A stretch of 60,943 nt of DNA from a virus (lineage: Duplodnaviria > Caudoviricetes), in the IMG/VR virus record IMGVR_UViG_3300037483_000373, positions 1-60,943 of that record; one strand, given 5' to 3'. Positions 5,316 through 48,950 of the stretch are shown one piece after another. The notes below the pieces were generated by a model that saw only the letters and a list, made by a program, of their open reading frames with translations, made no database searches and had not been told where the DNA came from. Position 1 is the first letter of the stretch, and each line of letters begins with the position of its first letter. The position numbers were made by a program, and so were the translations under genes.

Positions 5316-6569
5316 ATGATGGCTAAGGCAAGCCGCAAGGACTTTGACGGAGTTCCAACAGATAAGCTCATCGAAGCCGTGGCCATGGCCGAAGGGTCGG
5401 GCTATACCTTCGAGGGATATGTTAGGCTCCCGCGGATCTTTCTATCCGATCCGAAGGTGAGTTTCGCGCCGGTCGAGGCGATCGGAGTTCACGCGCTCTT
5501 GATGGACATGGCATGGACTGAGACGCCGGCCTGTTCGGTATCGGAGGAGATCATGGAGCTGGTCCTAGACCGTGCCTCAGATCGCGCGATGGCGGAGAGG
5601 TGGGTCCTAAAATCGTGGCAGCTCATAGGTGGGCGGTGGTGGCAACGCGGGTTGCTCAAATCATTCCTCTCGGCAGCCGTGTCGAACGCGTTCAAGGCGT
5701 GGGGTAGGGGTGACCGCGACAAGCTGCGCGAGTTCTTCCACCTCGTCGGGGTGTCGGCACCTGGTGGTGACTCATCGGCAAATCGCTATGAGTCATCAAA
5801 TTCTGATGATGACTCATCGGCAAATCGCTATGAGTCATCAAATTCTGATGATGACTCATCAGAGACATTAGATGAGTCATGTATCAAAGATGATGACACA
5901 CGACAGAATATGAATGGGAATATGAATATGAATGAAGAAGGATGCATCCAAGACACCAAGGCATGCGCGGAGCCGGCCGAGCCGGCTCCCACGCCGGAGG
6001 CACCTCCGGTGCTCTCGTTCCCGATCATCAAGGGCAAGAAATCATCGAAGTCTGAGTGGCACCTGACGGAGGAGCTACTCGACGAGCTGATGGAGTGCTA
6101 CGAGGGAACTCCGTTTGGCGATCGGGATAGGATCCTCGAAGCCATCCGGCAGTCAAAAGCATGGATCCTGGCAAACATGGCCAAGCGAAAGACGGCATCG
6201 GGGATGCCAAGGTTCATCACCGGATGGCTTCAGCGGGAGCAGAACTCAGGCAAGAACGGATCCTCGGGCAACGGCAAAGCGATCGGCAAGCCGTGCTCAG
6301 ACTGTGGCAGAGTCTCAGAGAGCCCAGAAGGCTGGCAGCCGTTCGGCATGTGCCTAGCATGCTCAACCAAGATGGAGTATCGCCCACACGGTTGCCCGCA
6401 CATAGACGGGAGAAGCCGATGGGATTCAATCCAGGAGAAGCACATCGTCAACGACGAGTGGGTGGCGCTCTACGGCGAGCCACCTGAGGGAGACACGATG
6501 GAAGTCAAGAGGCAGTTCCTACGCGGCGAGCTGCCGCCTAACCCGAAACCTGAGCAGGTTACACATTGA
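5316..6569 (+). CDS. Putative replication initiator (lambda O-like organisation)
   Basis: Precedes primase-helicase; central iteron region; C-terminal RFITGWLQREQ motif. Confidence 0.6.
   Translation: MMAKASRKDFDGVPTDKLIEAVAMAEGSGYTFEGYVRLPRIFLSDPKVSFAPVEAIGVHALLMDMAWTETPACSVSEEIMELVLDRASDRAMAERWVLKSWQLIGGRWWQRGLLKSFLSAAVSNAFKAWGRGDRDKLREFFHLVGVSAPGGDSSANRYESSNSDDDSSANRYESSNSDDDSSETLDESCIKDDDTRQNMNGNMNMNEEGCIQDTKACAEPAEPAPTPEAPPVLSFPIIKGKKSSKSEWHLTEELLDELMECYEGTPFGDRDRILEAIRQSKAWILANMAKRKTASGMPRFITGWLQREQNSGKNGSSGNGKAIGKPCSDCGRVSESPEGWQPFGMCLACSTKMEYRPHGCPHIDGRSRWDSIQEKHIVNDEWVALYGEPPEGDTMEVKRQFLRGELPPNPKPEQVTH
5768..5937. repeat. Iteron cluster, putative replication origin
   Basis: 42-bp unit x2.2 with GACTCAT/ATGAGTC inverted half-sites, then AT-rich GAATAT repeats. 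Confidence 0.7.
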
Positions 6570-8466: not shown

Positions 8467-8629
8467 GCCCGAACCCGCCGGCTACGTAGCCTGGCACGAA
8501 TGGGCTAAGTCTCGGGTTAAGGCCGGATGGCGACAGACCCGATGCACGAAGTGCAGGCTCTGGAAGGTTTGGACGAAGAGGCCCGCGGCACCTGAGAAGA
8601 TCTGCGATGCATGCCGCTTGACAGCCTGA
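8459..8629 (+). CDS. Small Cys-rich hypothetical protein
   Basis: PAGYVAWHEWA..QTRCTKCRLW. Confidence 0.55.
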   Translation: MLEPEPAGYVAWHEWAKSRVKAGWRQTRCTKCRLWKVWTKRPAAPEKICDACRLTA

Positions 8630-8646
8630 CAAGGATGGAGTAGGCT
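8618..8646 (+). promoter_or_regulatory. Motif promoter P1
   Basis: TTGACAGCCTGACAA; TTGACA-17-TAGGCT. Confidence 0.8.
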
Positions 8647-28171: not shown

Positions 28172-28360
28172 ATGAACGAGAATGAAAACGACGACGCCCT
28201 GGATATTCACAGCACGTTGAAGCTCGATGTGACAAATCTGCTCGTTCACGCGGAAGAACTCCGCGAGCAGGCCGGTAGGTCTGAGAAGGGGCGCCTACTG
28301 GCGATCGCCTGCACCGAGATCCAGAAGGTGAAGGCGTTCATCGGATACGAAGGGCTTTAA
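28172..28360 (+). CDS. Small hypothetical protein
   Basis: R.LAIA.TE.QK motif. Confidence 0.55.
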   Translation: MNENENDDALDIHSTLKLDVTNLLVHAEELREQAGRSEKGRLLAIACTEIQKVKAFIGYEGL

Positions 28361-28388
28361 GCCATCTCCGCCACCTACACTAACTCGC
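28328..28388 (+). repeat. 61-bp exact direct repeat, copy 1
   Basis: Identical to 30152-30212. Confidence 0.9.
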
Positions 28389-28744
28389 TGCCTACCGACC
28401 TGGATTGGGTACGCTACCTGATCCAGGATACCGATATCACCTCGCCCAAGATGCAGGACGAGGAGATCACGGCAGTGCTGGCAGATCAGCTTGCGAGCGG
28501 AGACGGTGCCAAGTACTACGCGGCGGCAGACTGCCTCTCCTCGCTCCTGGCCTCTTGGGTGTCCAAGGGAGACGGGGTCCTAGAGAAGGAAGTCGACGAT
28601 CTGCGGATCAAGTACGGCGCGGGATCCTCGGCAGCCGAGGCCGTCAACGCCATGATCCAGCGATACCGGGCACGCGGCGCCGATCGCTCCATAGCGACCG
28701 GATCGCGGATCATGATGGTAAGCCCGAGGGTCTCGACGGTATAG
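28364..28744 (+). CDS. Head-tail adaptor (neck) protein; no canonical start for its conserved N-terminus
   Basis: SATYTNSLPTDLDWVRYLIQDTD....MQDEEI, VDDLRIKY; candidate ATC start at 28364. Confidence 0.7.
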   Translation: MSATYTNSLPTDLDWVRYLIQDTDITSPKMQDEEITAVLADQLASGDGAKYYAAADCLSSLLASWVSKGDGVLEKEVDDLRIKYGAGSSAAEAVNAMIQRYRARGADRSIATGSRIMMVSPRVSTV

Positions 28745-28822
28745 GCACTACTCCTCGGGCTGGATCATGGCGTTGACGGCCTCGGCTGCCGAGGATCCCG
28801 CGCCGTACTTGATCCGCAGATC
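28598..28822. repeat. 64-bp perfect inverted repeat (28598-28661 / 28759-28822) with ~30-bp diverged extension
   Basis: Direct comparison of the two arms. Confidence 0.9.
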
Positions 28823-28908
28823 CCCTACCTCTTTCTCTACGATCCCATCCCCTTGAGGGCCGGCCGGGTCGGTTTCGAGGCCGGTGCCGTAGCAGATGGG
28901 GCAGGTCA

Positions 28909-30133: not shown

Positions 30134-30151
30134 CACAGCTCCTTTCTCAAC

Positions 30152-30212
30152 GTGAAGGCGTTCATCGGATACGAAGGGCTTTAAGCCATCTCCGCCACCT
30201 ACACTAACTCGC
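30152..30212 (+). repeat. 61-bp exact direct repeat, copy 2
   Basis: Identical to 28328-28388. Confidence 0.9.
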
Positions 30213-30228
30213 GGATCATCCAACTCGA

Positions 30229-30765
30229 TCACTTGCTTTGCTCTCGGCGAGCTAGCGCCGCGACGGCGATCGCCCGTAGGTCTTCATCTGTCGCGGCGCG
30301 GGGATCGAGGAAGGCCAGCGAAGGGACCGCGGGCTGTGGATCTTTCCACGCGGACGGACACGTGCGGCGGTCCATGGCAGACATGATCGCGCAGATCAGG
30401 TCACCGGTAGCCACCTGGCCCAGCCCGAGCAGGACGCGTGCGATCCGTATCCGCAGCTGCCGCTCCCCATCCAGCCGACGATCTTCCAGGTGCCTTCGTG
30501 GTGGCAAGAGGCGCGCCGGCACGATCGTCCACCGGCACTCGACCCACCCATCTCGGAGGATGTGGTGGCCGAGAATGCCAGTCGCTGTGAGCGCGCTGAG
30601 CACGAGCGGTCCAGGATCGCGAAGGCTCATGCACGGTGACCGCCTGGCGGCCAGCCGGGCCACGATGTCATCGTAGCGATCGACTTCGGCAGCGATCTCG
30701 GCGCGCTTTGCTCTCTCACTGGTCATGTGGCAGCTCCTGTTGATTGTGGTCTGTGCGGTGGTCAT
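30229..30765 (-). CDS. Hypothetical protein
   Basis: First gene after P8. Confidence 0.55.
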   Translation of the reverse strand: MTTAQTTINRSCHMTSERAKRAEIAAEVDRYDDIVARLAARRSPCMSLRDPGPLVLSALTATGILGHHILRDGWVECRWTIVPARLLPPRRHLEDRRLDGERQLRIRIARVLLGLGQVATGDLICAIMSAMDRRTCPSAWKDPQPAVPSLAFLDPRAATDEDLRAIAVAALARREQSK

Positions 30766-39750: not shown

Positions 39751-40164
39751 ATGTCCACCTACCTACAGATCCTCAGCATGCAGCGGCCGTTCCCGTTCGG
39801 CACAGATTCGAACAACCCGCCGCGCACGGTGTTCTCGTGCAACTTCGAGGCGATATCTCAAGGCGCGGTAACGGACTGGGAGCAGGAGATCGTGCAGATT
39901 CTCGAAAACGCGTCTCTCGCCACCTTCGGCACGGATACATGGATAGGACCACTGGCTCCGATGCCTACAGGAGACGGGCCGTATATCCGAGTGGTCGATA
40001 CAGGTGGCAGCTCTCCGGACAGACCGCACGACAACAGCGTGTACGAGAACCTATCGATTCAGATCCTGGTCCACGCGCTGGACTATGTCGCAGGGCGGAC
40101 CAGGGCGCTAGCTATCTGGCGTCTGCTCGACGGACAGTATGGGATCAGCATCTCGGCTGCGTAG
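39751..40164 (+). CDS. Tail terminator/minor capsid-type protein
   Basis: DTGG, SIQILV.A.DY. Confidence 0.7.
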   Translation: MSTYLQILSMQRPFPFGTDSNNPPRTVFSCNFEAISQGAVTDWEQEIVQILENASLATFGTDTWIGPLAPMPTGDGPYIRVVDTGGSSPDRPHDNSVYENLSIQILVHALDYVAGRTRALAIWRLLDGQYGISISAA

Positions 40165-40563
40165 GAGCTTTCGGATTCCGCCAAGGACTTCCTGTGAGAC
40201 GATCCACCCAGCCCTTGAGAGATGACTGGTTATCTCGTACACCGTGCTCGATGAGAACTCGCCTACAGTCGCGGTAACACGGACACCGCCCTCTACCCTG
40301 TCGAGGGCGATCGAGTCGACTGTCGGGAAGATATAGCCAATGGCCGTGCCAAGCTCCGTGACGTAGGTTTCCGACATCTGCCCGTCCCATTCGGGCTCAG
40401 GGCGCGGTGGTGGCGTCTCTCCCGAGGATGTCGACCTTTCGCACATCCTGCATTCCAGGGCGCCGACATCCTCCTTCGCCACGGTGGCGCGCTGTTGAAT
40501 AGAGCCGCAGAAATCGCAGCCGTAAATGGTCTCGTTCTCGTTCACCTTCGATCGTACGTGCAT
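40108..40563 (-). CDS. Hypothetical Zn-ribbon protein
   Basis: SD AGGAG; CDFC..CRMC; follows the ncRNA array. Confidence 0.55.
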   Translation of the reverse strand: MHVRSKVNENETIYGCDFCGSIQQRATVAKEDVGALECRMCERSTSSGETPPPRPEPEWDGQMSETYVTELGTAIGYIFPTVDSIALDRVEGGVRVTATVGEFSSSTVYEITSHLSRAGWIVSQEVLGGIRKLLRSRDADPILSVEQTPDS

Positions 40564-40594
40564 TGGATTCTCCTGGTTGTGATGTGATGAATCG

Positions 40595-40718
40595 CACCCG
40601 CCTACCTCGATTCGAACGAGGATCCGTTAACCGCCTATGGTTTGGGCGCTCGACTTGGAGACAGGCGGCGGATGCCGTTCCCCTTCGACGTGTCTGCCAT
40701 TTCCACCAGAGGCAGGTG
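40595..40718 (-). ncRNA. tRNA-like RNA B (Leu-type D arm, T arm, enlarged centre)
   Basis: CACCTGCCT/AGGCGGGTG acceptor-like stem, TGGTGGAAATGGCAGACAC, CCTCG-TTCGAAT-CGAGG; no canonical anticodon arm. Confidence 0.7.
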
Positions 40719-40726
40719 AGAACTTG

Positions 40727-40830
40727 TGAGCGATGGGCTCGAAGCGGAGGACACGAAGTACGAAGGAAACCGGGGAATGTCGCCCCCTTGACGCCTCGCA
40801 TCTCGTGCCCTCCTTCCAACCCATCGCTCA
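40727..40830 (-). ncRNA. 104-nt rod-like structured RNA
   Basis: TGAGCGATGGG/CCCATCGCTCA closing stem, nested stems to a GGGG/CCCC apex. Confidence 0.6.
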
Positions 40831-40844
40831 GTTGTCAGGGATCT

Positions 40845-41030
40845 AATTCGCGCCCTCCAAACAGTCGGATCCACACCCAGGACGGATTTCCCACGTCGCT
40901 CGGTTCGTCCAGCGCGCCAGAGTGCTATCAACGCTTGCGCGGAAAGGGCCGTCAACGCCGTTACGCCGACGAGGCCGCTGGAAGGTCGTGCTTTTTTAAT
41001 GCGAGCCCGACTGTTTGCAAGGCACGAGTT
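40845..41030 (-). ncRNA. ~185-nt multibranch structured RNA
   Basis: CAAACAGTCGG/CCGACTGTTTG, TCCAGC/GCTGGA, GTCGGCGT/GCGTTGAC stems. Confidence 0.6.
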
Positions 41031-41042
41031 GTCAGAGATCAA

Positions 41043-41136
41043 GCCTCAGAGGGTCCGCTGAGGCGCCGGAAAGGTGAAGAGTCGGCGCAGGGGACCTGAC
41101 AGGTCCGGTTTTTTCCCGGGGCTCCAGCCCTGCGCC
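41043..41136 (-). ncRNA. Three-way-junction RNA (41084-41136) plus hairpin (41043-41064)
   Basis: GGCGCAGGG/CCCTGCGCC closing stem; GCCTCAG/CTGAGGC. Confidence 0.5.
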
Positions 41137-41138
41137 TA

Positions 41139-41231
41139 GCCGAGACGGCAACGGATTCGAACCGCTGACAAGCGACTTTCGCCTGCGCCCTCCTTCCGAT
41201 GACATCAGATCCGGGCTGTACAACCCTCGGC
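41139..41231 (-). ncRNA. tRNA-like RNA A
   Basis: GCCGAG/CTCGGC stem, CAGCGG-TTCGAAT-CCGTTG T arm, 8-bp extra arm; no canonical anticodon loop. Confidence 0.65.
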
Positions 41232-41264
41232 ATCAATCGTCGGGACCTCGTCTCCGCTTCGCAC

Positions 41265-41334
41265 AGCCTACCGCACTCGCCGCTAGCCTGTCAAGGCTTT
41301 GACATTCGACAATTTTTGTCAGCCAGCCTATAAT
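41265..41334. promoter_or_regulatory. Motif promoter P10 (-) and tail-operon promoter (+)
   Basis: - TTGACAGGCTAGC, TTGACA(41294)-18-TAGGCT; + TCGACA-17-TATAAT containing CGACA-N5-TGTCA. Confidence 0.8.
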
Positions 41335-41430
41335 GCACGTACCGCACCTAATCTGACCTGGACACTGCCGACCGCCGAGAGTGCGCGCGCGTCCTCTCGG
41401 GATTTTCCACGCCTCTCAGGAGACAGCCAC

Positions 41431-41889
41431 ATGTCCAATTCCGCGGTTTCAGGTCACGGAGCAACGTTCGCGATCACTCTCGATCCCGTCAACTCGGCCT
41501 CCACCTACACGTCGGTCGCTGAGATCACCAGCGACATCATGCACGAGTACAAGCGTGACAGCGAAGGCCACGCTGCGCACGCCGACACGGTCGTCAGCTA
41601 CATCATGGATGGAGCTTTCGATCAGTCGGAGATCCCGCTGACGTGCAACTTCATCTACAACAACTCGACCCACGATCACACCACGGGCGTCCAGAGCATT
41701 TTCAAGGCCGGGACCTTGATCGGCTTCCGCCTCCGCTCCCCGCTGGGCACCACGGACACCAACGAGGTGATCGGCTCGTGCTTCGTCAGCTCGTTCAAGC
41801 GCACGTTCCCGAACCGCACCGGAGCCCAGTCCGCTGAGATCGGCTTCCGTCCCTCCGGCACGTTCAAGATCGACGGCGTCACCTTCTGA
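41431..41889 (+). CDS. Major tail tube protein
   Basis: SD AGGAG; AVSGHG, VAEI, C-terminal FRPSG; position. Confidence 0.8.
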   Translation: MSNSAVSGHGATFAITLDPVNSASTYTSVAEITSDIMHEYKRDSEGHAAHADTVVSYIMDGAFDQSEIPLTCNFIYNNSTHDHTTGVQSIFKAGTLIGFRLRSPLGTTDTNEVIGSCFVSSFKRTFPNRTGAQSAEIGFRPSGTFKIDGVTF

Positions 41890-41940
41890 GCCTCTCTCAC
41901 CTCACCTACCACCATCTAACCAACCGAGGAACCTCACCAC

Positions 41941-42357
41941 ATGGCAATCAAGAAAAAGGCAACCAAGCCAGCCGTAGCCAACGACACGGCCGAAGAGGCA
42001 GCCGAGCCCACCACTATCTGGACATCCGCTCACTTCGCAAAGGGCCTTGCGCGGAAGGCGAAGCTGATCCACGTCAAGTCCCTGAACATCGACGTGTATT
42101 GCAAGCCTATCTCCGGCCGATCCATGCAGGTGCTGCGGAAGTTTCACGCCGCGGTCAAGGGTGCTCAGGCTGGCGACGAAGGCGCCGACATCTTCGGGCA
42201 GATGGAGGAGCTGACGAAGATTCTCTCCGTATCCTTCTGCAACCCGGACAGCTCGCCGCTGGCGTCGGCAGATGACTGGCTCGATGCCGACTTCGAGCTG
42301 ATGATGGAGCTGATCACCGCGTCTATCACGCCCTCGAAAGCAGCAAAAAACGCCTGA
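41941..42357 (+). CDS. Tail assembly chaperone G
   Basis: Between tail tube and tape measure; ends GCA AAA AAC GCC TGA. Confidence 0.8.
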   Translation: MAIKKKATKPAVANDTAEEAAEPTTIWTSAHFAKGLARKAKLIHVKSLNIDVYCKPISGRSMQVLRKFHAAVKGAQAGDEGADIFGQMEELTKILSVSFCNPDSSPLASADDWLDADFELMMELITASITPSKAAKNA

Positions 42358-42776: not shown

Positions 42777-45700
42777 ATGGCTGTAAACATCGGCGCACTA
42801 GAGGGGACGATCAGCCTCAGGGACCTGTTCACCGGAAAGCTCGACAAGGCCGCCGATGGGCTTGAGACCTTTGCGCAGAAGTCGGAAAGGATCGGCCGGA
42901 AACTGTCGTCTACCGGGCAGTCTCTAACGCTTGCACTGACTGCTCCAATCGCCGCGGCCGGCGTTACTCTGGCCAAGCTGGCAGCGGATGCTGTCGAGTC
43001 TGAGTCCCTGTTCGAGGTCTCGTTTGCCGGGATGTCTGGAGCCGCAAGACAGTGGTCAGAGGACACATCCAAGGCACTCAAGCTGAATCAGTTCGAACTG
43101 CGGCGCTCAGTGGGCGTGATCTACACCATGACCGAGGCTATGGGGCTGAATCAGCAGGCGGCATTTGACATGTCTACGGGCGTGGTCGAGCTGGCCGGGG
43201 ATCTCGAATCGTTCTTTAACCTCAGAGCCGGCGAAGGCTTTCAAAAGCTCCAGTCTGGCCTGGTGGGCGAGACCGAGCCGCTCCGCGCGCTCGGCGTGGT
43301 GATCGACGAAGCGACGATCAAGGCCAAGGCGTACGAGGTGGGCATTGCCGCAGCAGGTGCCGAACTGACCGCGGCCCAGAAGGTTCAAGCTCGGTGGGCT
43401 ACGATCCTTGCCCAAACCTCAAAGGCGCAGGGCGACCTGGCCCGCACCCTGGAAAGTCCGGCAAATCGGCTGCGAGCGCTGCGCACAGAGCTTGTGCAGA
43501 CGCTGACGTTGCTCGCAATGAATCTGCTACCGATTTTCGAGAGAGTGCTCTCGGCGCTCGAAGGCATGGCGAAGATGATCGGCAAGCTCGCCGAGTGGTT
43601 CGGCAATCTGCCGCCCCCGGTTCAGCAGGTGACTGCTGCCGTTCTCGCACTGGTGGCAGCGCTGGGGCCTGTGCTTTTTATCGCAGGCCAGATCGCTATC
43701 GCGCTCAGCGCCCTTGGCGTGACTATGGCAGGTGTAGCAACTGCGTCATCTGCAACTATTGCCGTTCTTCTGGGCCCTGTCGGATGGGTGGCGGCTGGGA
43801 CAGCTCTTCTGCTTGCCTGGGAGCCGTCGAGAGAACTGATCCTCGATATCGGCGGCAGGGTGATCTCGACTCTGGTGTCTGCCGTGAAGGGCCTACTGTC
43901 CACCTTGGCAGACTGGTGGGAGTCAACCGAGAGGGTTCGCGCAGTTTTGCTCGAACTTGGCAAGATCGTAGGCGTCAAACTCGTCCGCGAGCTGTCCGCA
44001 GTCGTCCAAGTGGTCAAGGATGCCGCGAAGTGGATAAAGGATTTCTCGGCAGGCGTCGTGATCCTGGTAGAGGATTCAGAAGCGCTCGCAAAGGTAAACG
44101 GCAAGGTCGATAAGGCTTTCAGGGTTTTGGATGACTCTGCGGCCAGGCTGCTCGACACAATAAAGAAGATGGAGTATATCAAGACTGCGACCCATTTTTG
44201 GACGCAGTTCTTCAACAACATCAACGGCAAACTCGATTTCGCCGAGAGGTTCGGCGGAGCCGTGAAGGTCACCGAGGATGCTATAGCCGCTGCCAAGGCT
44301 GAACTCGTCGATTGGCATGCGCGTCTCGATGCCGCTGGGGTGCCGACCAAGAAAGCCGCAGATGACATCAAAGAGCTGGGCGGAGCGTTTGTCGATCTGA
44401 AGGCCCAGGTCAGCGACATGGAAGAGCAAGTGTCGCTGATGACGAGGTACGCCCTGAGCGCCGAGCAGGCGGCCATTGCGGTATCGATTCTCCACGATGC
44501 GGAGAGCGGTGGGGCGACGATCGAAATGATCCTCGATCAGCTTCGCGCCATGGAGTTGTTCGAGCAACAGGTCGAGGCGGTCACTGAGCGCTTCGCGGAG
44601 TTGCGCGCCGAGATCGGGCAGCTAGGGGCGTGGAAGGCGGTTGAAGCGATCGCGCTGCCAGTGCTTACCGTGGAGACCCCGTCTCTGACGATGAGTGATG
44701 CCGGGCAAGAGGAGATCTGGGCAGCCATCCTAGACGGAGTCAAGGAAGTCGACGAGGCCCAGAAGAAGCTCAACAAGACGGCAGAAGAAAATCTCCAACT
44801 CGCGTACCGGCAGGCCGAAATCTGGACCGATGTCGGCGACGTGCTCGCCGACGTGTTCGACGATCTGGAAAATGGATTGGGAGATCTCATCTATGATCTC
44901 GGCAAAGCGGCTGTAGCGTGGGAAAAGTACGCGGCAGCGAAGCAATACGGGACCGATGCAGATATCGCGGCCGCGCGCCAACAGCTAGCCAACTCGGTTG
45001 GCTCGGCAGTCGGCAACTACCTCGGCGGCGCCCTTGCCGGTGGTGGCCAGTCGGGCTTCGGTGGCGAGCAAGCCGGCTCCTACTCGGATGAAGGGGCTGA
45101 ACTCGGCTCCTACTTCGGTGGCATTTGGGGTGCTGTCGGCGCCGTCTTGGGTGGGTTGATCTCCAAAAGCGGGGATGAGGCGCGCGTGGCCATCGAGCAG
45201 TTCGGCTCGACGATCCAGGCTGCTGTCGTATTCGCTGAAGGCGGCCTCGGCGACGCCGCGAACGAGCTTGCTGCCGGATTCTCGGCCTTTATGTCGGATA
45301 TCCAGGCTCAGTTCGGGCTCGCAATTCAAAACACCGGCGGGATCCAGTTCGACTTCACCGACCGGGGCCTTCTCCAGGTATCCGGAGCCGAGATCGGCAC
45401 GGCCGCGTTCGAGACTATGGGAGAGGCCGCAGCCTACGCCGCCGAGCAAATCTTGGGCTTGAATGCGGGCACGAACAATCTCGGCGACAACATGACCGCT
45501 CTACTCCAGTCGTTGGGTGGAGAGGCCACCTTCGACAGCCTTGAGGAGCTAGGCACCGCGCTACAGCTCGCCGCTGAGGCAGACGGCCAGGCGATGAACG
45601 GAGAGTCTTCTGCCATCGCAGCGGTCACCCGGGCCCGAGAAGCTGAGATGGAGATCGCGACCAAGACCGGCATCGCCTACTCGGCCGTGATCGCCGTGGC

Positions 45701-48700
45701 CGATCGGCGCCTTGCTCAGATCCGCGAAGAGGTCGAGGCGACCCGGGATTCCATTTTCGGCGTGAGCAACAACCTGTCGGCGCTCCAGGCAGCATCGGCC
45801 AGCATGCTCAGCTACAACGCCGGGATCGAGGCTGAGACAAATGCCCGCATGGCGGCGATCACCTCCTCCGAAGGCTATGCCGTTGCACTGGCAGCGGCGG
45901 CCGGCGACGCCGAAGCCGCCATCGCGAGTCTGCGCTCGGGCTCCGCAGCAGGGGCTGGACCGGTGGGCGGCGAAAGCGCCGGCGTCACCGACAGCATGAG
46001 CGGACTGACCGACTCTCTCGTCGCACTGAACAACGCCGCCATTGACGCAGCGGAGTCTGCGTATCACGCGAGCCTGGAGCAGAGCGGGCTCGCCGGGTGG
46101 ATGGCCGAGTCGGCGGCCGCGGCCGAAGCCGAGGCTGCCGCTCGGGCAGTGGCTGCACAGGCGGGAGAAGAGTCGGCATCTGGCGTTGCCGCCGTGATCG
46201 ACAACGTCCTCGGCTTCATCGACGCCCTGCGCACCGGCCTGGATGGCCTTGCGTCCGGGACTGACGGGATCACGCAGGCCATGATCGACGCTGGCGGGGC
46301 CGCGGGCACCATGGAGGGGTTCCTCAATCAAGGCGCAGACGCCATGGGATCTTGGATCCAGGCCACCGGTATGGCTGACATCTACAGCGACCAAAAGGAG
46401 GCTATGCACCAGCAGCGGCGGGATATCCGCGAGCAGATCAATGACACAGAGCGGGCCCGAGAGGCGACTGATGCCCTTGTCGACTCCCTGGGCGACATCC
46501 CCCAGGCGTTCTCCATGGACGAGATCGCCGCGATCTGGGAGAAAGGCGCAGCCGACGCCGGGCTAGCACTCCTCAGCATGATTCGCCAGGTGCGCGGCGA
46601 GGAATGGGGCGCGGCTCAAGAACGCCTCCTGATGGCCTCGGTATTCAAGCTCCAGCTTGCGGTGCAATTGCAGTCGGTCTATCAGCTGTTGGCAGCGACA
46701 GAGCTCCTCTCTGAGGCTACGCGCGCGGTATTGACGGGCTTGGCGGCGGAAGCTGAGCGGATCCTCGGCGACAACAGCATCAACATCCGTGTGGGTGGCA
46801 GACCCAGAGGGGGCGGAGGCGACAACGGAGAAGCGCAAAGGCGGCAGGAGTTCCGCGACCAATTCGCGCTGGACGTGGCGGATACCGCCGAGCTTCTGAA
46901 TGGCTGGGGCGCCGCGCTGGTGGACATGCGCCAAGGCTTGCGCGACATCACGGCTGGAGCCCAGGAAGCTCGCGAGATGGGCGTATCGGAAGCCCTGATC
47001 GCACAGTACCGCGCTCAGCAGCTCGACATCCTCCGCAACACGATGGAGGAAGGGCTCAGGAACACGATATCGGGAGGTGGCGACTCGGCCGGAGGGATCT
47101 TCGACCGCTATCAAGAAGCGGCCACAGCGGCCTGGGAGCTGGCCGGAGATCGCGCTGCGGAGTTCGGCACCGAGGTTTGGCAGGAAATGGCGCCGATTGC
47201 CGAGCTGATACGTCAAGCGTTCGGTGTCGAGCTGACAGATTTTGTCAGCGACCAAGTTAACGGCCTGGTCAGTGCGGGAGATCTCGACGGCATAGTTGCC
47301 TTGCAGGGTGAGCTTGAGCGTATGTCCCATGGAGTACGCCGAGTAGGGGACATGATCGTCGGCACGCTAGGGGGCGACGCCCTGACGATGTCGGCAGCGG
47401 AATACGCCGCAGCAATCGAGGCAACGCAGGAAGGTATCCGCCAACTCGGTCGCAGCCTGGTCGACAGCTTCGAGACTCCGCTGCTCGACGCGCAAGCCAG
47501 CGCCGACGACTTTGCCGAGCGGCTGGAGATGCTGCGCGAGATCTTCGCCCTGACCGGCGAGGGCGCCGAGGCTCTTGGAGAGATCGCCGACCATGCGAAT
47601 CAGTCGCTACTCGGCTCGATTGCCGGGCTCTACGATCAGCTTGGGGCGACCGAGGAAGCTGAGGCGATCAAGCAGCAGTTGGCTAGGGCCACCTTCGAAC
47701 TGCAACTGAATCAAATGCGTATCCTGTATGAGAGTCAGCTTGCGCTGGGTATCGTCTCGGAGTCGACACAGGCCGCGATGGAATCGTTCTTCGAGTACGT
47801 GGCGGGTGTGAATCTGGACGACATCTTCGCTCCTGGCGCGGGGAGTGGCCCCTCCTACGGGGGCGGTGGCGGGACTCCATACGACCCGCAGCAGTACACC
47901 GACTCGATTGATGGCCTATTCAACGCCATCACCGACACGATCGACGGATGGCTGCGAGTAGGCCAGGGGCCGCTTCTCAGCCAAGCGCTGCAAATGAACA
48001 GCGACCTTGAGCGGGCGCGCCAGCAGATGACCGACCTGCTGGAGATGGAGAACAGCCCGCGGACACGCGCGTTGCGCGACCAGATGGAGGGCGCGTTTGC
48101 GGAGATGTCGCAAGCGTGGGCCGACGAAGTGCTCGCCAGCTTGACCGACGCGGGAACCGGGCTTCAGTCGGAATTCGACGACCTCATCGAGCACTTTGCC
48201 GACATCTCGGCAGCCTTTGCCGAACTCGGCATCCTGGCAGAGAACGCAGAGGTCCTTGCCGCGGCACAGGCTGCCGCCCTGCAAAACTTCTGGGACAACG
48301 CGACCTCTGGCATTCAGGGGATCATTGATCGGCTCACGGGGGTGGAGAGTGGCCGAGCGCCCGTGGATCTGCTTGCGGAGCAGCAGGCCGTGGTGCAGGA
48401 TCTCTTCGAGCGCGCGATGGGTGGCGACCTGTCGGCGCTGGAGCAGCTCGACGCGCAGTCCGAGGACTTCCTCGACCTCATCGGCGAGGTGTTCGGCTCT
48501 GGGCGGGCCGGTGGGATCCTGCGGGACCAGCTCTTGGCGATGCTCCAACAGGTAGCCGGGATTGATCCCAGCGCAATCCTCGGCGCGGACGGCGCACCGA
48601 TCGGCGGAGGTGACGGTGGTGGCGTATTCGATCCGCCAGGCGATGGCGGGCGGGGTGATATCCTAGGTGGGCTGATTGAGGAGCCGTACGTGTTGCGCGG

Positions 48701-48950
48701 CTCAGACCTCATTGCCCAGCCTTTCAACCTGGCCGGGTACCTCGAAGGTGGTCCGTCATTCGAATTCAGACAGGCCCTCAAGGAGAACCGACGCGAGATG
48801 GAAAAGGCAGAGAGAGACAGGGAACGGGAGCGCATCCGTAGAGACCAGATCCGCATGGAGGTAGACACGTCGCAGCGCGGCGCCTTGATCCGTGCCACGC
48901 GTGGAATCGGCGTGCGACCCATCAACGAATCCATCAGGTACGGCGCGTGA
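42777..48950 (+). CDS. Tape measure protein (2057 aa)
   Basis: Length, Ala-rich helical composition, GETEPL..LG, QGD.ART..S.AN, hydrophobic segment. Confidence 0.93.
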   Translation: MAVNIGALEGTISLRDLFTGKLDKAADGLETFAQKSERIGRKLSSTGQSLTLALTAPIAAAGVTLAKLAADAVESESLFEVSFAGMSGAARQWSEDTSKALKLNQFELRRSVGVIYTMTEAMGLNQQAAFDMSTGVVELAGDLESFFNLRAGEGFQKLQSGLVGETEPLRALGVVIDEATIKAKAYEVGIAAAGAELTAAQKVQARWATILAQTSKAQGDLARTLESPANRLRALRTELVQTLTLLAMNLLPIFERVLSALEGMAKMIGKLAEWFGNLPPPVQQVTAAVLALVAALGPVLFIAGQIAIALSALGVTMAGVATASSATIAVLLGPVGWVAAGTALLLAWEPSRELILDIGGRVISTLVSAVKGLLSTLADWWESTERVRAVLLELGKIVGVKLVRELSAVVQVVKDAAKWIKDFSAGVVILVEDSEALAKVNGKVDKAFRVLDDSAARLLDTIKKMEYIKTATHFWTQFFNNINGKLDFAERFGGAVKVTEDAIAAAKAELVDWHARLDAAGVPTKKAADDIKELGGAFVDLKAQVSDMEEQVSLMTRYALSAEQAAIAVSILHDAESGGATIEMILDQLRAMELFEQQVEAVTERFAELRAEIGQLGAWKAVEAIALPVLTVETPSLTMSDAGQEEIWAAILDGVKEVDEAQKKLNKTAEENLQLAYRQAEIWTDVGDVLADVFDDLENGLGDLIYDLGKAAVAWEKYAAAKQYGTDADIAAARQQLANSVGSAVGNYLGGALAGGGQSGFGGEQAGSYSDEGAELGSYFGGIWGAVGAVLGGLISKSGDEARVAIEQFGSTIQAAVVFAEGGLGDAANELAAGFSAFMSDIQAQFGLAIQNTGGIQFDFTDRGLLQVSGAEIGTAAFETMGEAAAYAAEQILGLNAGTNNLGDNMTALLQSLGGEATFDSLEELGTALQLAAEADGQAMNGESSAIAAVTRAREAEMEIATKTGIAYSAVIAVADRRLAQIREEVEATRDSIFGVSNNLSALQAASASMLSYNAGIEAETNARMAAITSSEGYAVALAAAAGDAEAAIASLRSGSAAGAGPVGGESAGVTDSMSGLTDSLVALNNAAIDAAESAYHASLEQSGLAGWMAESAAAAEAEAAARAVAAQAGEESASGVAAVIDNVLGFIDALRTGLDGLASGTDGITQAMIDAGGAAGTMEGFLNQGADAMGSWIQATGMADIYSDQKEAMHQQRRDIREQINDTERAREATDALVDSLGDIPQAFSMDEIAAIWEKGAADAGLALLSMIRQVRGEEWGAAQERLLMASVFKLQLAVQLQSVYQLLAATELLSEATRAVLTGLAAEAERILGDNSINIRVGGRPRGGGGDNGEAQRRQEFRDQFALDVADTAELLNGWGAALVDMRQGLRDITAGAQEAREMGVSEALIAQYRAQQLDILRNTMEEGLRNTISGGGDSAGGIFDRYQEAATAAWELAGDRAAEFGTEVWQEMAPIAELIRQAFGVELTDFVSDQVNGLVSAGDLDGIVALQGELERMSHGVRRVGDMIVGTLGGDALTMSAAEYAAAIEATQEGIRQLGRSLVDSFETPLLDAQASADDFAERLEMLREIFALTGEGAEALGEIADHANQSLLGSIAGLYDQLGATEEAEAIKQQLARATFELQLNQMRILYESQLALGIVSESTQAAMESFFEYVAGVNLDDIFAPGAGSGPSYGGGGGTPYDPQQYTDSIDGLFNAITDTIDGWLRVGQGPLLSQALQMNSDLERARQQMTDLLEMENSPRTRALRDQMEGAFAEMSQAWADEVLASLTDAGTGLQSEFDDLIEHFADISAAFAELGILAENAEVLAAAQAAALQNFWDNATSGIQGIIDRLTGVESGRAPVDLLAEQQAVVQDLFERAMGGDLSALEQLDAQSEDFLDLIGEVFGSGRAGGILRDQLLAMLQQVAGIDPSAILGADGAPIGGGDGGGVFDPPGDGGRGDILGGLIEEPYVLRGSDLIAQPFNLAGYLEGGPSFEFRQALKENRREMEKAERDRERERIRRDQIRMEVDTSQRGALIRATRGIGVRPINESIRYGA

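What the first reader, a model, noticed from the sequence alone, without database searches (positions are those of the whole stretch)
40570..41294. Promoter-driven array of structured ncRNAs with two tRNA-like elements
Seen: a ~690-nt stretch with no convincing ORF, downstream of promoter P10 (minus strand), is tiled almost end to end by self-closing modules. These are tRNA-like A (41139-41231), a three-way junction, a hairpin, a ~185-nt multibranch RNA, a 104-nt rod and tRNA-like B (40595-40718). Both tRNA-like units keep a perfect TTCGAAT T-loop and an acceptor-like stem but lack an anticodon arm. Several stems pair better on the minus strand through G-U pairs. Inference: a polycistronic RNA cassette, possibly processed by RNase P/Z at the tRNA-like units, acting as decoys for anticodon nucleases, Ro/Y-RNA-type mimics or protein sponges. 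This is my best candidate for an undescribed system.
Basis: partly seen in the sequence, partly recalled or inferred. Interest (0 to 1): 0.88.

Follow-up and report, generated by a model that had tools for sequence, protein, structure and literature searches.

The report
Remodelled tRNA-Leu relics in phage leader
A 0.7-kb non-coding stretch behind a phage promoter holds two elements descended from leucine tRNA genes that can no longer decode, set around a long hairpin and other folds that a natural variant of the same phage lacks, so it is a modest curiosity and not a clearly new RNA system.

Summary
The window is a 60.9-kb phage record with terminal repeats, from sediment and soil metagenomes. 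Positions 40564-41430 are a real non-coding gap between an orphan zinc-ribbon ORF (minus strand) and the major tail gene (plus strand).

Confirmed:
- The promoter is real. It is one of 12 copies of a phage-wide motif, against about 1 expected.
- Two T-arm hairpins with a TTCGAAT loop are the only two in the window. Shuffles give a mean of 0.02.
- A 105-nt rod hairpin folds far better than shuffles (z -7.4).
- Folding is better on the minus strand.

New: both tRNA-like units descend from tRNA-Leu. B carries an exact 20-nt tRNA-Leu D-arm. The 3' half of A aligns with tRNA-Leu. Neither passes as a tRNA by ARAGORN or Rfam.

- Apart from the rod, local folding is ordinary for this genome.
- A near-identical natural variant lacks 228 nt, including half of the rod and half of the multibranch module. 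What remains of it shows no excess structure.
- No homologues were found, so covariation could not be tested.
- No RNA data were available.
- The phage has no YrlA match and no Ro60 gene.

Best reading (0.45): the stretch is a remodelled tRNA-gene cluster that serves as a transcribed leader. A and B probably still act as RNase P/Z processing signals.

The parts
41265..41295 (-). The start site is inferred near 41258.
   Evidence: Exact member of a 12-copy motif family, 1.06 expected. The other copies carry TAnnnT-like -10 boxes, and at least 6 of the other 11 are followed by an SD-like site plus ATG within the 75 nt shown.
41139..41231 (-). tRNA-like A. It has a 7-bp acceptor-like stem, no D-arm, an irregular arm, a variable-arm-like hairpin (41168-41186) and a T-arm (41150-41166). 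Three extra nt lie between the T-stem and the acceptor 3' strand.
   Evidence: Fold -38.9 kcal/mol, z -2.26 on minus and -0.98 on plus. T-arm motif. The 3' half aligns with tRNA-Leu, score 28 against 19.2+-2.4, with 3 of 200 shuffles as good; the 5' half shows no similarity, with 179 of 200 shuffles as good. Not found by ARAGORN, RF00005 or model R1.
41175..41179 (-). Loop of A's variable-arm-like hairpin. It differs in letters and length between the window and runs X3, X4 and X6, while the 5-bp stem stays unchanged.
   Evidence: Tables 3 and 4. It is the only place in the 2101 nt laid with more than two haplotypes. Depths are only 2-7.1.
41080..41138 (-). Three-way junction closed by a 9-bp stem. 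On the plus strand its inner hairpin (41092-41116) reads as a terminator-like site.
   Evidence: z -3.30, 1 of 200 shuffles as good. Plus and minus energies are equal. Terminator-like hit on plus, but 3 found against 1.9 expected in the 3 kb scanned.
41027..41079 (-). Small hairpin module plus the first copy of the motif GATCYCTGACAACT (41027-41040). All but two of its bases (41027-41077) are absent from the X3 variant.
   Evidence: z -1.04, not significant. Motif. Deletion.
40832..41026 (-). Multibranch module closed by an 8+12-bp stem. A second motif copy at 40830-40843 straddles its 3' end and the first bases of the rod.
   Evidence: -86.2 kcal/mol, z -3.46 on minus, against -67.4 on plus. 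Its 3' half is deleted in X3, and 13 nt of the closing stem are missing in X6.
40727..40831 (-). Rod: a 105-nt hairpin with 40 pairs (34 Watson-Crick, 6 G-U, one A.C mismatch).
   Evidence: -67.1 kcal/mol, z -7.35 on minus; -50.8, z -5.68 on plus. Pair counts. Third most extreme of 3042 genome windows. Its 5' arm is deleted in X3.
40595..40718 (-). tRNA-like B. It has an acceptor (6 of 7 pairs, or a 9-bp extended stem), an exact tRNA-Leu D-arm 20-mer (40689-40708), a 4-bp/8-nt-loop hairpin at the anticodon position, a 52-nt variable arm and a T-arm (40605-40621).
   Evidence: The 20-mer is found exactly at 62 places in 61 genome loci, and 57 of the 62 are called tRNA-Leu, at tRNA positions 8-27. 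B is the top hit of the tRNA-Leu model R1 in the window: 22.6 bits, E 0.0024, next best 13.4 bits. The cloverleaf constraint gives -38.0 against an MFE of -41.4 kcal/mol.
40108..40563 (-). ORF151, an orphan protein with an N-terminal CxxC...CxxC. An SD-like AGGAG lies 7 nt upstream, and the start codon is 31 nt after B.
   Evidence: GC3 0.70. Translation. Only one 99% identical database entry. No Pfam, PHROG or PADLOC family.
41306..41334 (+). Divergent plus-strand promoter-like site for the tail genes (major tail gene 41431-41889).
   Evidence: TCGACA-17-TATAAT, 11 of 12 matches. phrog_158 major tail protein, E 1.5e-5.

Best explanation
The stretch is the transcribed non-coding leader of a reverse-oriented insert placed between the head and tail modules of a siphovirus-like phage. 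The insert consists of a promoter, a 0.7-kb leader and the orphan zinc-ribbon ORF151. The leader descends from tRNA genes. Units A and B both derive from tRNA-Leu. They keep the parts that tRNA-processing enzymes read: acceptor stem plus T-arm in both, and in B also the D-arm that forms the elbow. They have lost a working anticodon arm, so they cannot decode. Between them lies a fast-changing, dispensable spacer whose strong folds (rod, multibranch) are young inverted repeats, not conserved RNAs. Inferred mechanism, not shown: host RNA polymerase starts near 41258. RNase P and RNase Z cut at A and B, which releases tRNA-shaped stable pieces and sets the 5' end of the ORF151 mRNA 31 nt before its start codon.
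For: Promoter family and the unusually long leader. The stretch is non-coding. The only two T-arm hairpins in the window are both here, on the transcribed strand. B carries an exact tRNA-Leu D-arm at the correct distance from the acceptor strand, and its acceptor 3' strand abuts the T-stem as in tRNAs. A's 3' half aligns with the tRNA-Leu variable arm and T-arm. Both are rejected as tRNAs. Minus-strand folding is better without the rod: 427 nt give z -2.49 on minus and -0.15 on plus. A, the junction and B are kept in the X3 variant, which lacks 228 nt of the middle. In 3 of 5 viral relatives (L003, L005, L006) the tail gene follows plus-strand genes without a large gap, so the module looks inserted. 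The record behind one of these five relatives, at another place in its genome, has one true tRNA followed by degenerate tRNA-like units.
Against: There is no expression or processing data. No homologue of the RNA was found, so no covariation test was possible. At >=99% identity, retention of A and B in variants says little. A has 3 extra nt between the T-stem and the acceptor strand, which would disturb the 12-bp minihelix that RNase P and the CCA enzyme measure. B does not fold better than shuffles (z -1.26), and its cloverleaf is 3.4 kcal/mol above the MFE. The R1 hit to B is partly circular, because all 37 seed tRNAs were picked for holding B's 20-mer. All 3 substitutions seen inside ORF151 fall on first or second codon positions (positions worked out by hand), so even ORF151 is not shown to be under purifying selection.
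Confidence: 0.45

Rival explanations
1. Pure relics. A and B are tRNA-Leu pseudogenes recently broken by insertions and deletions. The rod and multibranch are accidental inverted duplications. The whole 0.7 kb is decaying spacer with no role beyond separating the promoter from ORF151.
For: Strain variation is dominated by indels that cut through stems (177, 51, 13 and 2 nt). The X3-like form has no excess structure (z -0.86). The region is ordinary against genome background except for the rod. A is geometrically compromised. No homologues were found anywhere.
Against: Two separate units both keep a perfect T-loop, T-stem and acceptor pairing while losing decoding parts. B's D-arm is 20 of 20 identical to real tRNA-Leu. 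Phage genomes rarely carry 0.7 kb of junk behind a consensus promoter. Minus-strand bias in pairing.
Confidence: 0.25
2. Decoys or sponges. A and B are tRNA-Leu-shaped (type II, long variable arm) RNAs kept to soak up a host factor that reads the tRNA elbow, acceptor or variable arm. One example would be a defence nuclease of the kind that cuts the variable loop of a type II tRNA.
For: Type II architecture with an intact variable-arm hairpin in A and a greatly enlarged one in B. The loop of A's variable-arm hairpin is the only site with four haplotypes among the window and 3 runs, with the stem unchanged. [quoted passage not shown]
Against: No defence system or host is known for this phage. 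The loop variants rest on contigs of depth 2-7.1 and could be a quasi-palindrome mutation hotspot. Real tRNA-Leu variable loops also vary freely (alignment A2). The known cases concern whole, functional tRNAs and not decoding-dead mimics.
Confidence: 0.12
3. Y-RNA-like module. One or more units are bacterial Y RNAs (YrlA/YrlB type) that tether a Ro60 protein.
For: Y RNAs mimic tRNA, come several to one precursor and occur in phages (PMC4201824: abstract and passages read). The viral record behind L003, a distant relative, has a YrlA-like match (57.3 bits, E 3.4e-12, below Rfam's cut-off of 69) right after a true tRNA. Two matches to the paper's short motif GNCGAAN0-1G can be read in A and B (by eye).
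Against: No YrlA match in this phage at E<=10. No TROVE gene in this phage or in 5 viral relatives. The order T-arm, acceptor hairpin, D-arm inside a long closing stem is absent. The YrlA model also gives sub-threshold hits in 13 of 14 control genomes. About 0.3 chance matches to the short motif are expected in 700 nt (my estimate).
Confidence: 0.04
4. DNA-level or plus-strand function. The gap is a divergent control region. Its junction is the terminator of the upstream plus-strand late operon, and the inverted repeats are protein-binding or recombination sites. A related idea is that the tRNA pieces mark an attachment site.
For: Back-to-back promoters at 41265-41334 and a plus-strand terminator-like hairpin with a T-run at 41092-41116. 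The junction folds equally on both strands.
Against: Terminator-like hits are not enriched (3 against 1.9 expected). A, the multibranch and the rod are 11-19 kcal/mol better on minus. No tyrosine integrase in the genome, and none among the 30 ORFs scanned with Pfam. B holds the 5' D-arm of a tRNA, which attachment sites do not carry. A likely origin with three 42-nt repeats lies elsewhere, at 5761-5886.
Confidence: 0.08

Closest known systems
Phage tRNA gene clusters with pseudo-tRNAs and extra stable RNAs (for example the T4 tRNA region with its small stable RNAs of unknown role; this example is recalled, and no passage on it was found)
   Same: A promoter-driven run of tRNA-shaped units on one transcript, expected to be cut by RNase P and 3' processing enzymes, with non-tRNA structured pieces in between.
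   Different: No unit here is a working tRNA. The units are tRNA-Leu derivatives with replaced D or anticodon parts. The array is the leader of a protein gene.
Bacterial and phage Y RNAs YrlA/YrlB (Rfam RF02553; PMC4201824)
   Same: tRNA mimicry with a T-arm, several units from one precursor, presence in phages, and RNase P cleavage of the 7-bp-acceptor form in M. smegmatis (passages read).
   Different: No model match. No Ro60 gene. The arm order is that of a tRNA, not the permuted YrlA order.
tRNA-like domain of tmRNA
   Same: Acceptor stem plus T-arm kept, and the anticodon arm replaced by other RNA.
   Different: ARAGORN and Rfam find no tmRNA. There is no tag reading frame. The ancestry is tRNA-Leu, not tRNA-Ala (the latter is recalled).
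Phage tRNAs that supplement or decoy tRNAs cut by defence nucleases (Septu PtuAB, retron-Eco7; PMC13096335)
   Same: A type II tRNA shape with the variable arm as the contested part, and a variable loop that differs between strains here.
   Different: The known cases are complete, decodable tRNA-Tyr genes. Here the units cannot decode, and no defence partner is known.
tRNA-like processing signals such as mascRNA at the MALAT1 3' end (recalled)
   Same: A tRNA-shaped element used only as an RNase P/Z cutting signal on a longer transcript.
   Different: That case is eukaryotic. No processing has been shown here.

Membership tests
Canonical tRNA gene | Recognised by ARAGORN at default settings or by Rfam RF00005 | tested here: not met
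   0 genes in the window. No RF00005 hit at E<=10. Relaxed ARAGORN calls are unspecific, with 81 in the window at ps80.
Canonical tRNA gene | Acceptor stem closing the molecule and a 5-bp T-stem with a 7-nt TTCRANT loop | tested here: met
   Both units. A has 3 extra nt between the T-stem and the acceptor strand. B has 6 of 7 acceptor pairs.
Canonical tRNA gene | D-arm with G18 G19 | tested here: inconclusive
   B: met, with 20 of 20 identity to tRNA-Leu positions 8-27. A: not met, since its 5' half shows no similarity (179 of 200 shuffles as good).
Canonical tRNA gene | 5-bp anticodon stem with a 7-nt loop (U33, purine 37) | tested here: not met
   B has 16 nt with a 4-bp stem and an 8-nt loop without U33. 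A has a 4-bp stem above an internal loop; a 7-nt loop reading is possible only by eye.
tRNA-Leu descent (homology, not function) | Sequence blocks shared with real tRNA-Leu in the right order and spacing | tested here: met
   B. A's 3' half: (3 of 200 shuffles as good). The R1 score for B is partly circular.
YrlA / bacterial Y RNA | Match to Rfam RF02553 | tested here: not met
   None at E<=10.
YrlA / bacterial Y RNA | Encoded beside a Ro60 (TROVE) gene | tested here: not met
   No PF05731 match at E<=1 in the phage; the control genomes give the expected matches.
tmRNA | ARAGORN or Rfam tmRNA model and a tag peptide frame | tested here: not met
Phage attachment site in a tRNA gene | An integrase in the genome and only the 3' part of the tRNA copied | tested here: not met
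   No PF00589 match. Serine recombinases were not searched on their own. B carries the 5' D-arm.
Described large structured RNAs (GOLLD, ROOL, group I/II introns and others in Rfam 15) | Match to any of 4227 Rfam models | tested here: not met
   0 at gathering score. Only 3 chance-level microRNA rows at E 2-3.1.
Conserved structured ncRNA (any) | Covariation among homologues | not testable with these tools
   No homologue of the RNA was found. Closer relatives exist only as proteins in unreachable contigs. Near-identical strains show stem-breaking deletions instead.

The most novel reading that the evidence does not exclude
A and B are purpose-kept, decoding-dead tRNA-Leu mimics expressed from a host-type phage promoter as decoys or sponges for a host factor that reads the elbow, acceptor or long variable arm of type II tRNAs. 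One candidate is a defence nuclease of the Septu/retron-Eco7 kind. On this reading the strain-to-strain turnover of A's variable-arm loop is the trace of an arms race. This would be the first RNA-only tRNA-mimic counter-defence.
Probability: 0.1. Interest if true: 0.8.

Novelty: new variant of a known kind. Interest (0 to 1): 0.4.

Why it matters
Phage tRNA genes are now seen as players in the contest with tRNA-cutting defences. Units that keep only the parts of a tRNA read by enzymes and drop the decoding parts would extend that picture from spare tRNAs to pure mimics. If they are only relics, the locus is still a clear snapshot of how a phage tRNA cluster decays by block replacement and indels instead of point mutation, and of how strong hairpins can be young and dispensable. 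It also warns that a string of good-looking folds in a GC-rich genome is not evidence of function: here only one module beats the genome's own background.

Tried and rejected
Expression: the look-up of sequencing runs listed 9 DNA holders and no RNA holder. This says nothing either way.

Cover: in the runs laid, parts of 40539-40893 have no contig cover in X4, X5 and X6. This is not usable as evidence. One X4 contig runs on, unlike the window, left of 40821. That hints at a shortened rod and a diverged B, but only 30 letters were shown.

Homologue hunts that found nothing:
- blastn of 1301 nt against isolated phages
- tblastn of ORF151 and the tail protein against phages
- single-protein scans of viral contigs
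- four DNA patterns in viral contigs
- blastn of the gap against loci of relatives

Profile scans gave only 36-40% identical tail proteins.

Relaxed ARAGORN finds A and B but also 81 places in the window at ps80, so I rejected it as evidence.

The long-range pairs of the global MFE were not trusted.

ORF151: the atlas gave only sub-0.9 leads. The AlphaFold model had mean pLDDT 47.9, so no fold search was run.

No reverse transcriptase. No PADLOC family for ORF151 or 4 neighbours.

The 65-aa ORF with a strong SD inside the rod (40627-40824) was rejected. It has no family, and its start lies in the segment deleted in X3.

Split or permuted tRNA and group I intron readings were rejected. Each unit closes on its own acceptor stem, and Rfam finds no intron.

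Papers: the searches turned up no report of decoding-dead tRNA mimics in phages. These were four word searches only.
Full report
Setting. The window is a complete-looking viral record of 60,943 bp with 127-bp direct terminal repeats. It is held by sediment and soil metagenome runs. Pfam and PHROG hits give the following: a replication module (AAA_24, primase-polymerase/helicase); a portal-MuF fusion; a capsid protein; a methyl-, sulfo- and glycosyltransferase cluster; a major tail protein at 41431-41889 followed by a 2057-aa ORF at 42777-48950 (the tape-measure reading rests on size and position only and was not searched); a VanY-like lysin; and an ectoine-synthase-like gene. The finding lies in an 867-bp gap, 40564-41430. 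On one side is a minus-strand ORF of 151 aa (40108-40563). On the other is the plus-strand major tail gene.

Is the stretch non-coding? Yes. ORFs inside it have GC3 of 0.53-0.65, whereas neighbouring genes have 0.70-0.86. Six internal ORFs gave no Pfam family at E<=0.01. The longest, 178 aa on plus, matched only a 100% identical database entry. The 135-aa minus ORF matched none of 1.84 billion representatives.

Is it promoter-driven? The minus-strand site at 41265-41295 is an exact copy of CTTGACAGGCT. That motif has 12 copies at <=1 mismatch, against 1.06 expected, and 0 of 100 shuffles reach 12. The copies carry TAnnnT-like -10 boxes. At least 6 of the other 11 are followed by an SD-like site and ATG within the 75 nt shown. 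This copy is instead followed by about 700 nt before the ORF151 start. A plus-strand promoter-like site (11 of 12 matches) lies back to back with it at 41306-41334. Transcription itself is inferred, since no RNA run was listed.

Are the tRNA-like units real? A 5-bp stem with a TTCGAAT loop occurs exactly twice on both strands of the window. Both are on the minus strand inside this gap. 200 dinucleotide shuffles give a mean of 0.02 and never 2. Each is enclosed by an acceptor-like stem. Neither is a tRNA gene by ARAGORN, by Rfam at gathering score, or by RF00005 at E<=10. Relaxed ARAGORN settings do call them but are unspecific, with 81 calls in the window at ps80.

What are they? Unit B holds a 20-mer (40689-40708) that occurs exactly at 62 places in 61 loci of diverse bacterial genomes. 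ARAGORN of the 62 tRNA-Leu, 3 other tRNAs and 2 nothing. The 20-mer covers tRNA positions 8-27, that is the D-arm. As in those tRNAs, B's acceptor 5' strand ends right before it and the acceptor 3' strand follows the T-stem directly.

From the 44 distinct tRNAs I aligned 37. I dropped 3 not called Leu and 4 with shifted 5' ends. I then built covariance model R1. Over the whole window with filters off, B is the top hit: 22.6 bits, E 0.0024, model positions 8-76, with the next best at 13.4 bits. It has 14 nt where the anticodon arm should be and a 42-nt insert in the variable arm. This score is partly circular, because all seeds share B's 20-mer. A constrained cloverleaf for B costs -38.0 kcal/mol, against an MFE of -41.4.

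Unit A is not hit by R1. Its 3' half does align with tRNA-Leu, from the 3' side of the anticodon loop through the variable arm and T-arm. The score is 28, against 19.2+-2.4 for shuffles, and 3 of 200 shuffles do as well. Its 5' half shows nothing, with 179 of 200 shuffles as good. On its own A folds as a cloverleaf with three arms. So both units descend from tRNA-Leu. Blocks have been replaced, not worn down, and neither unit has a canonical anticodon arm.

Are the other modules more than chance? Against shuffles:
- rod: z -7.35 on minus, -5.68 on plus
- junction: z -3.30
- 53-nt hairpin: z -1.04, B: z -1.26
- multibranch: z -3.46
- the 427 nt upstream of the rod: z -2.49 on minus, -0.15 on plus

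The rod has 34 Watson-Crick and 6 G-U pairs and one A.C mismatch. Over the six modules the minus strand has 29 G-U pairs and the plus strand 21.

Against the genome's own 3042 windows of 120 nt, however, only the rod is an outlier (z -5.13). The block as a whole ranks 510 of 3013 on minus and 1605 of 3013 on plus, and the strand difference ranks 845 of 3013. The 'end-to-end tiling' is therefore largely what any 61% GC sequence shows.

Natural variants. I laid contigs of four runs on 39900-42000. One X3 contig (1452 nt, depth 7.1) is otherwise nearly identical but skips 40787-40963 (177 nt) and 41027-41077 (51 nt). This removes the small hairpin, the 3' half of the multibranch module and the 5' arm of the rod. 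An X6 contig (depth 2) lacks 13 nt of the multibranch closing stem. An X4 contig lacks 2 nt at 40942.

A model of the X3 form has no excess folding (467 nt, z -0.86), against z -4.93 for the window form under the same mononucleotide-shuffle test. The strong central folds are therefore not conserved even among near-identical strains. A, the junction and B are kept in X3, but at this level of identity that is weak evidence.

The loop of A's variable-arm-like hairpin (41175-41179) shows four haplotypes among the window, X3, X4 and X6, with the stem unchanged. It is the only such site in the 2101 nt laid. Depths are low (2-7.1), and the tool warns that single-contig differences under depth 5 may be errors.

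Relatives. Eight loci hold tail proteins 36-40% identical: five from viral contigs and three from metagenome contigs. Their flanks have no DNA similarity to the gap (run on the five viral loci only). In three of the five viral loci the tail gene follows plus-strand genes without a large gap, so the reverse-oriented module here looks like an insertion. The viral record behind L003 carries, at another place in its genome, a true tRNA (64.4 bits). It is followed by a match to Rfam YrlA (57.3 bits, E 3.4e-12, below the cut-off of 69, with 13 pairs in its closing stems) and a further T-arm. The YrlA model also gives sub-threshold hits in 13 of 14 control genomes, so this is a candidate only. No TROVE gene was found in that record or in four others.

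Tests of named families for this window:
- YrlA: no match at E<=10, and no TROVE gene.
- tmRNA: none.
- Attachment site: no tyrosine integrase, and B carries a 5' tRNA part.
- Retron or DGR: no reverse transcriptase.
- Other Rfam families: none.

ORF151 is an orphan, with one 99% identical entry and no family. Its structure model is unreliable.

Reading. The best-supported account is a remodelled tRNA-gene cluster that now forms the leader of a promoter-ORF151 insert. A and B keep what RNase P, RNase Z and the CCA enzyme recognise: the acceptor-T-arm helix, plus the D/T elbow in B. This rests on established knowledge of tRNA processing. They probably act as cutting signals and may persist as stable tRNA-shaped RNAs. 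The middle is dispensable and young.

The main rival is plain decay. A bolder rival is a decoy role against factors that read type II tRNAs. It is prompted by the variable loop turnover and by passages in PMC13096335 on variable-loop cleavage of tRNA-Tyr by Septu and retron-Eco7. None of these readings is shown. The deciding data are homologues for covariation and RNA end mapping.

Verdict. The tRNA-Leu ancestry and the deletion variant are new facts that make the finding more ordinary than proposed. Novelty: a new variant of a known kind. Interest: 0.4.

Noticed in passing
L071:1501-1820 (viral record behind L003): A distant relative carries a true tRNA (64.4 bits; ARAGORN reads anticodon CGA). 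It is followed by a YrlA-like RNA (57.3 bits, E 3.4e-12, below Rfam's cut-off of 69) and another T-arm. No TROVE gene is in the 42.7-kb fragment, and the downstream ORF of more than 341 aa has no Pfam family.
   Followed up: partly
window:5761-5886: Three tandem 42-nt repeats, each holding a palindrome, lie inside ORF 5316-6569 just upstream of the primase-helicase gene. These are the most extreme folding windows of the genome on both strands. It is likely the replication origin.
   Followed up: no
window:28325-30229: 81-nt direct repeats (89% alike) at 28325-28405 and 30149-30229 bracket minus-strand genes. A 94-nt inverted repeat (90% complementary) lies at 28568-28661 / 28759-28852. It could be a duplicated or invertible segment.
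   Followed up: no
window:8617-41295 (12 sites): Promoter family CTTGACAGGCT with TAnnnT-like -10 boxes on both strands. Two copies overlap head to head at 8617-8633. The conserved bases beyond TTGACA suggest that a regulator also binds there.
   Followed up: partly
window:59708-60727 (-): A 339-aa ORF with an ectoine synthase domain (E 3.6e-30) in a phage genome. It may be an auxiliary metabolic gene.
   Followed up: no
window:32100-38444: Two methyltransferases, a sulfotransferase and a 986-aa glycosyltransferase-like protein lie between the capsid and tail genes. They may modify the virion.
   Followed up: no
window:40807-40817 and 41187-41197 (-); 40830-40843 and 41027-41040 (-): Two short exact repeats lie inside the gap. 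GGAAGGAGGGC is SD-like; one copy is in A and one in the rod's 5' arm, where it pairs with a CCUCC stretch. GATCYCTGACAACT has one copy just before the multibranch module, and a second that ends 1 nt into the rod. Their meaning is unknown.
   Followed up: partly
window:41626-41628 and 41665-41667: Two three-base substitutions (TCG to AGC on the plus strand) in the major tail gene. The first (41626-41628) is shared by runs X3, X4 and X5. The second (41665-41667) is seen in X3 and X5 only; X4 has no cover there. They look like whole-codon swaps between strains.
   Followed up: no
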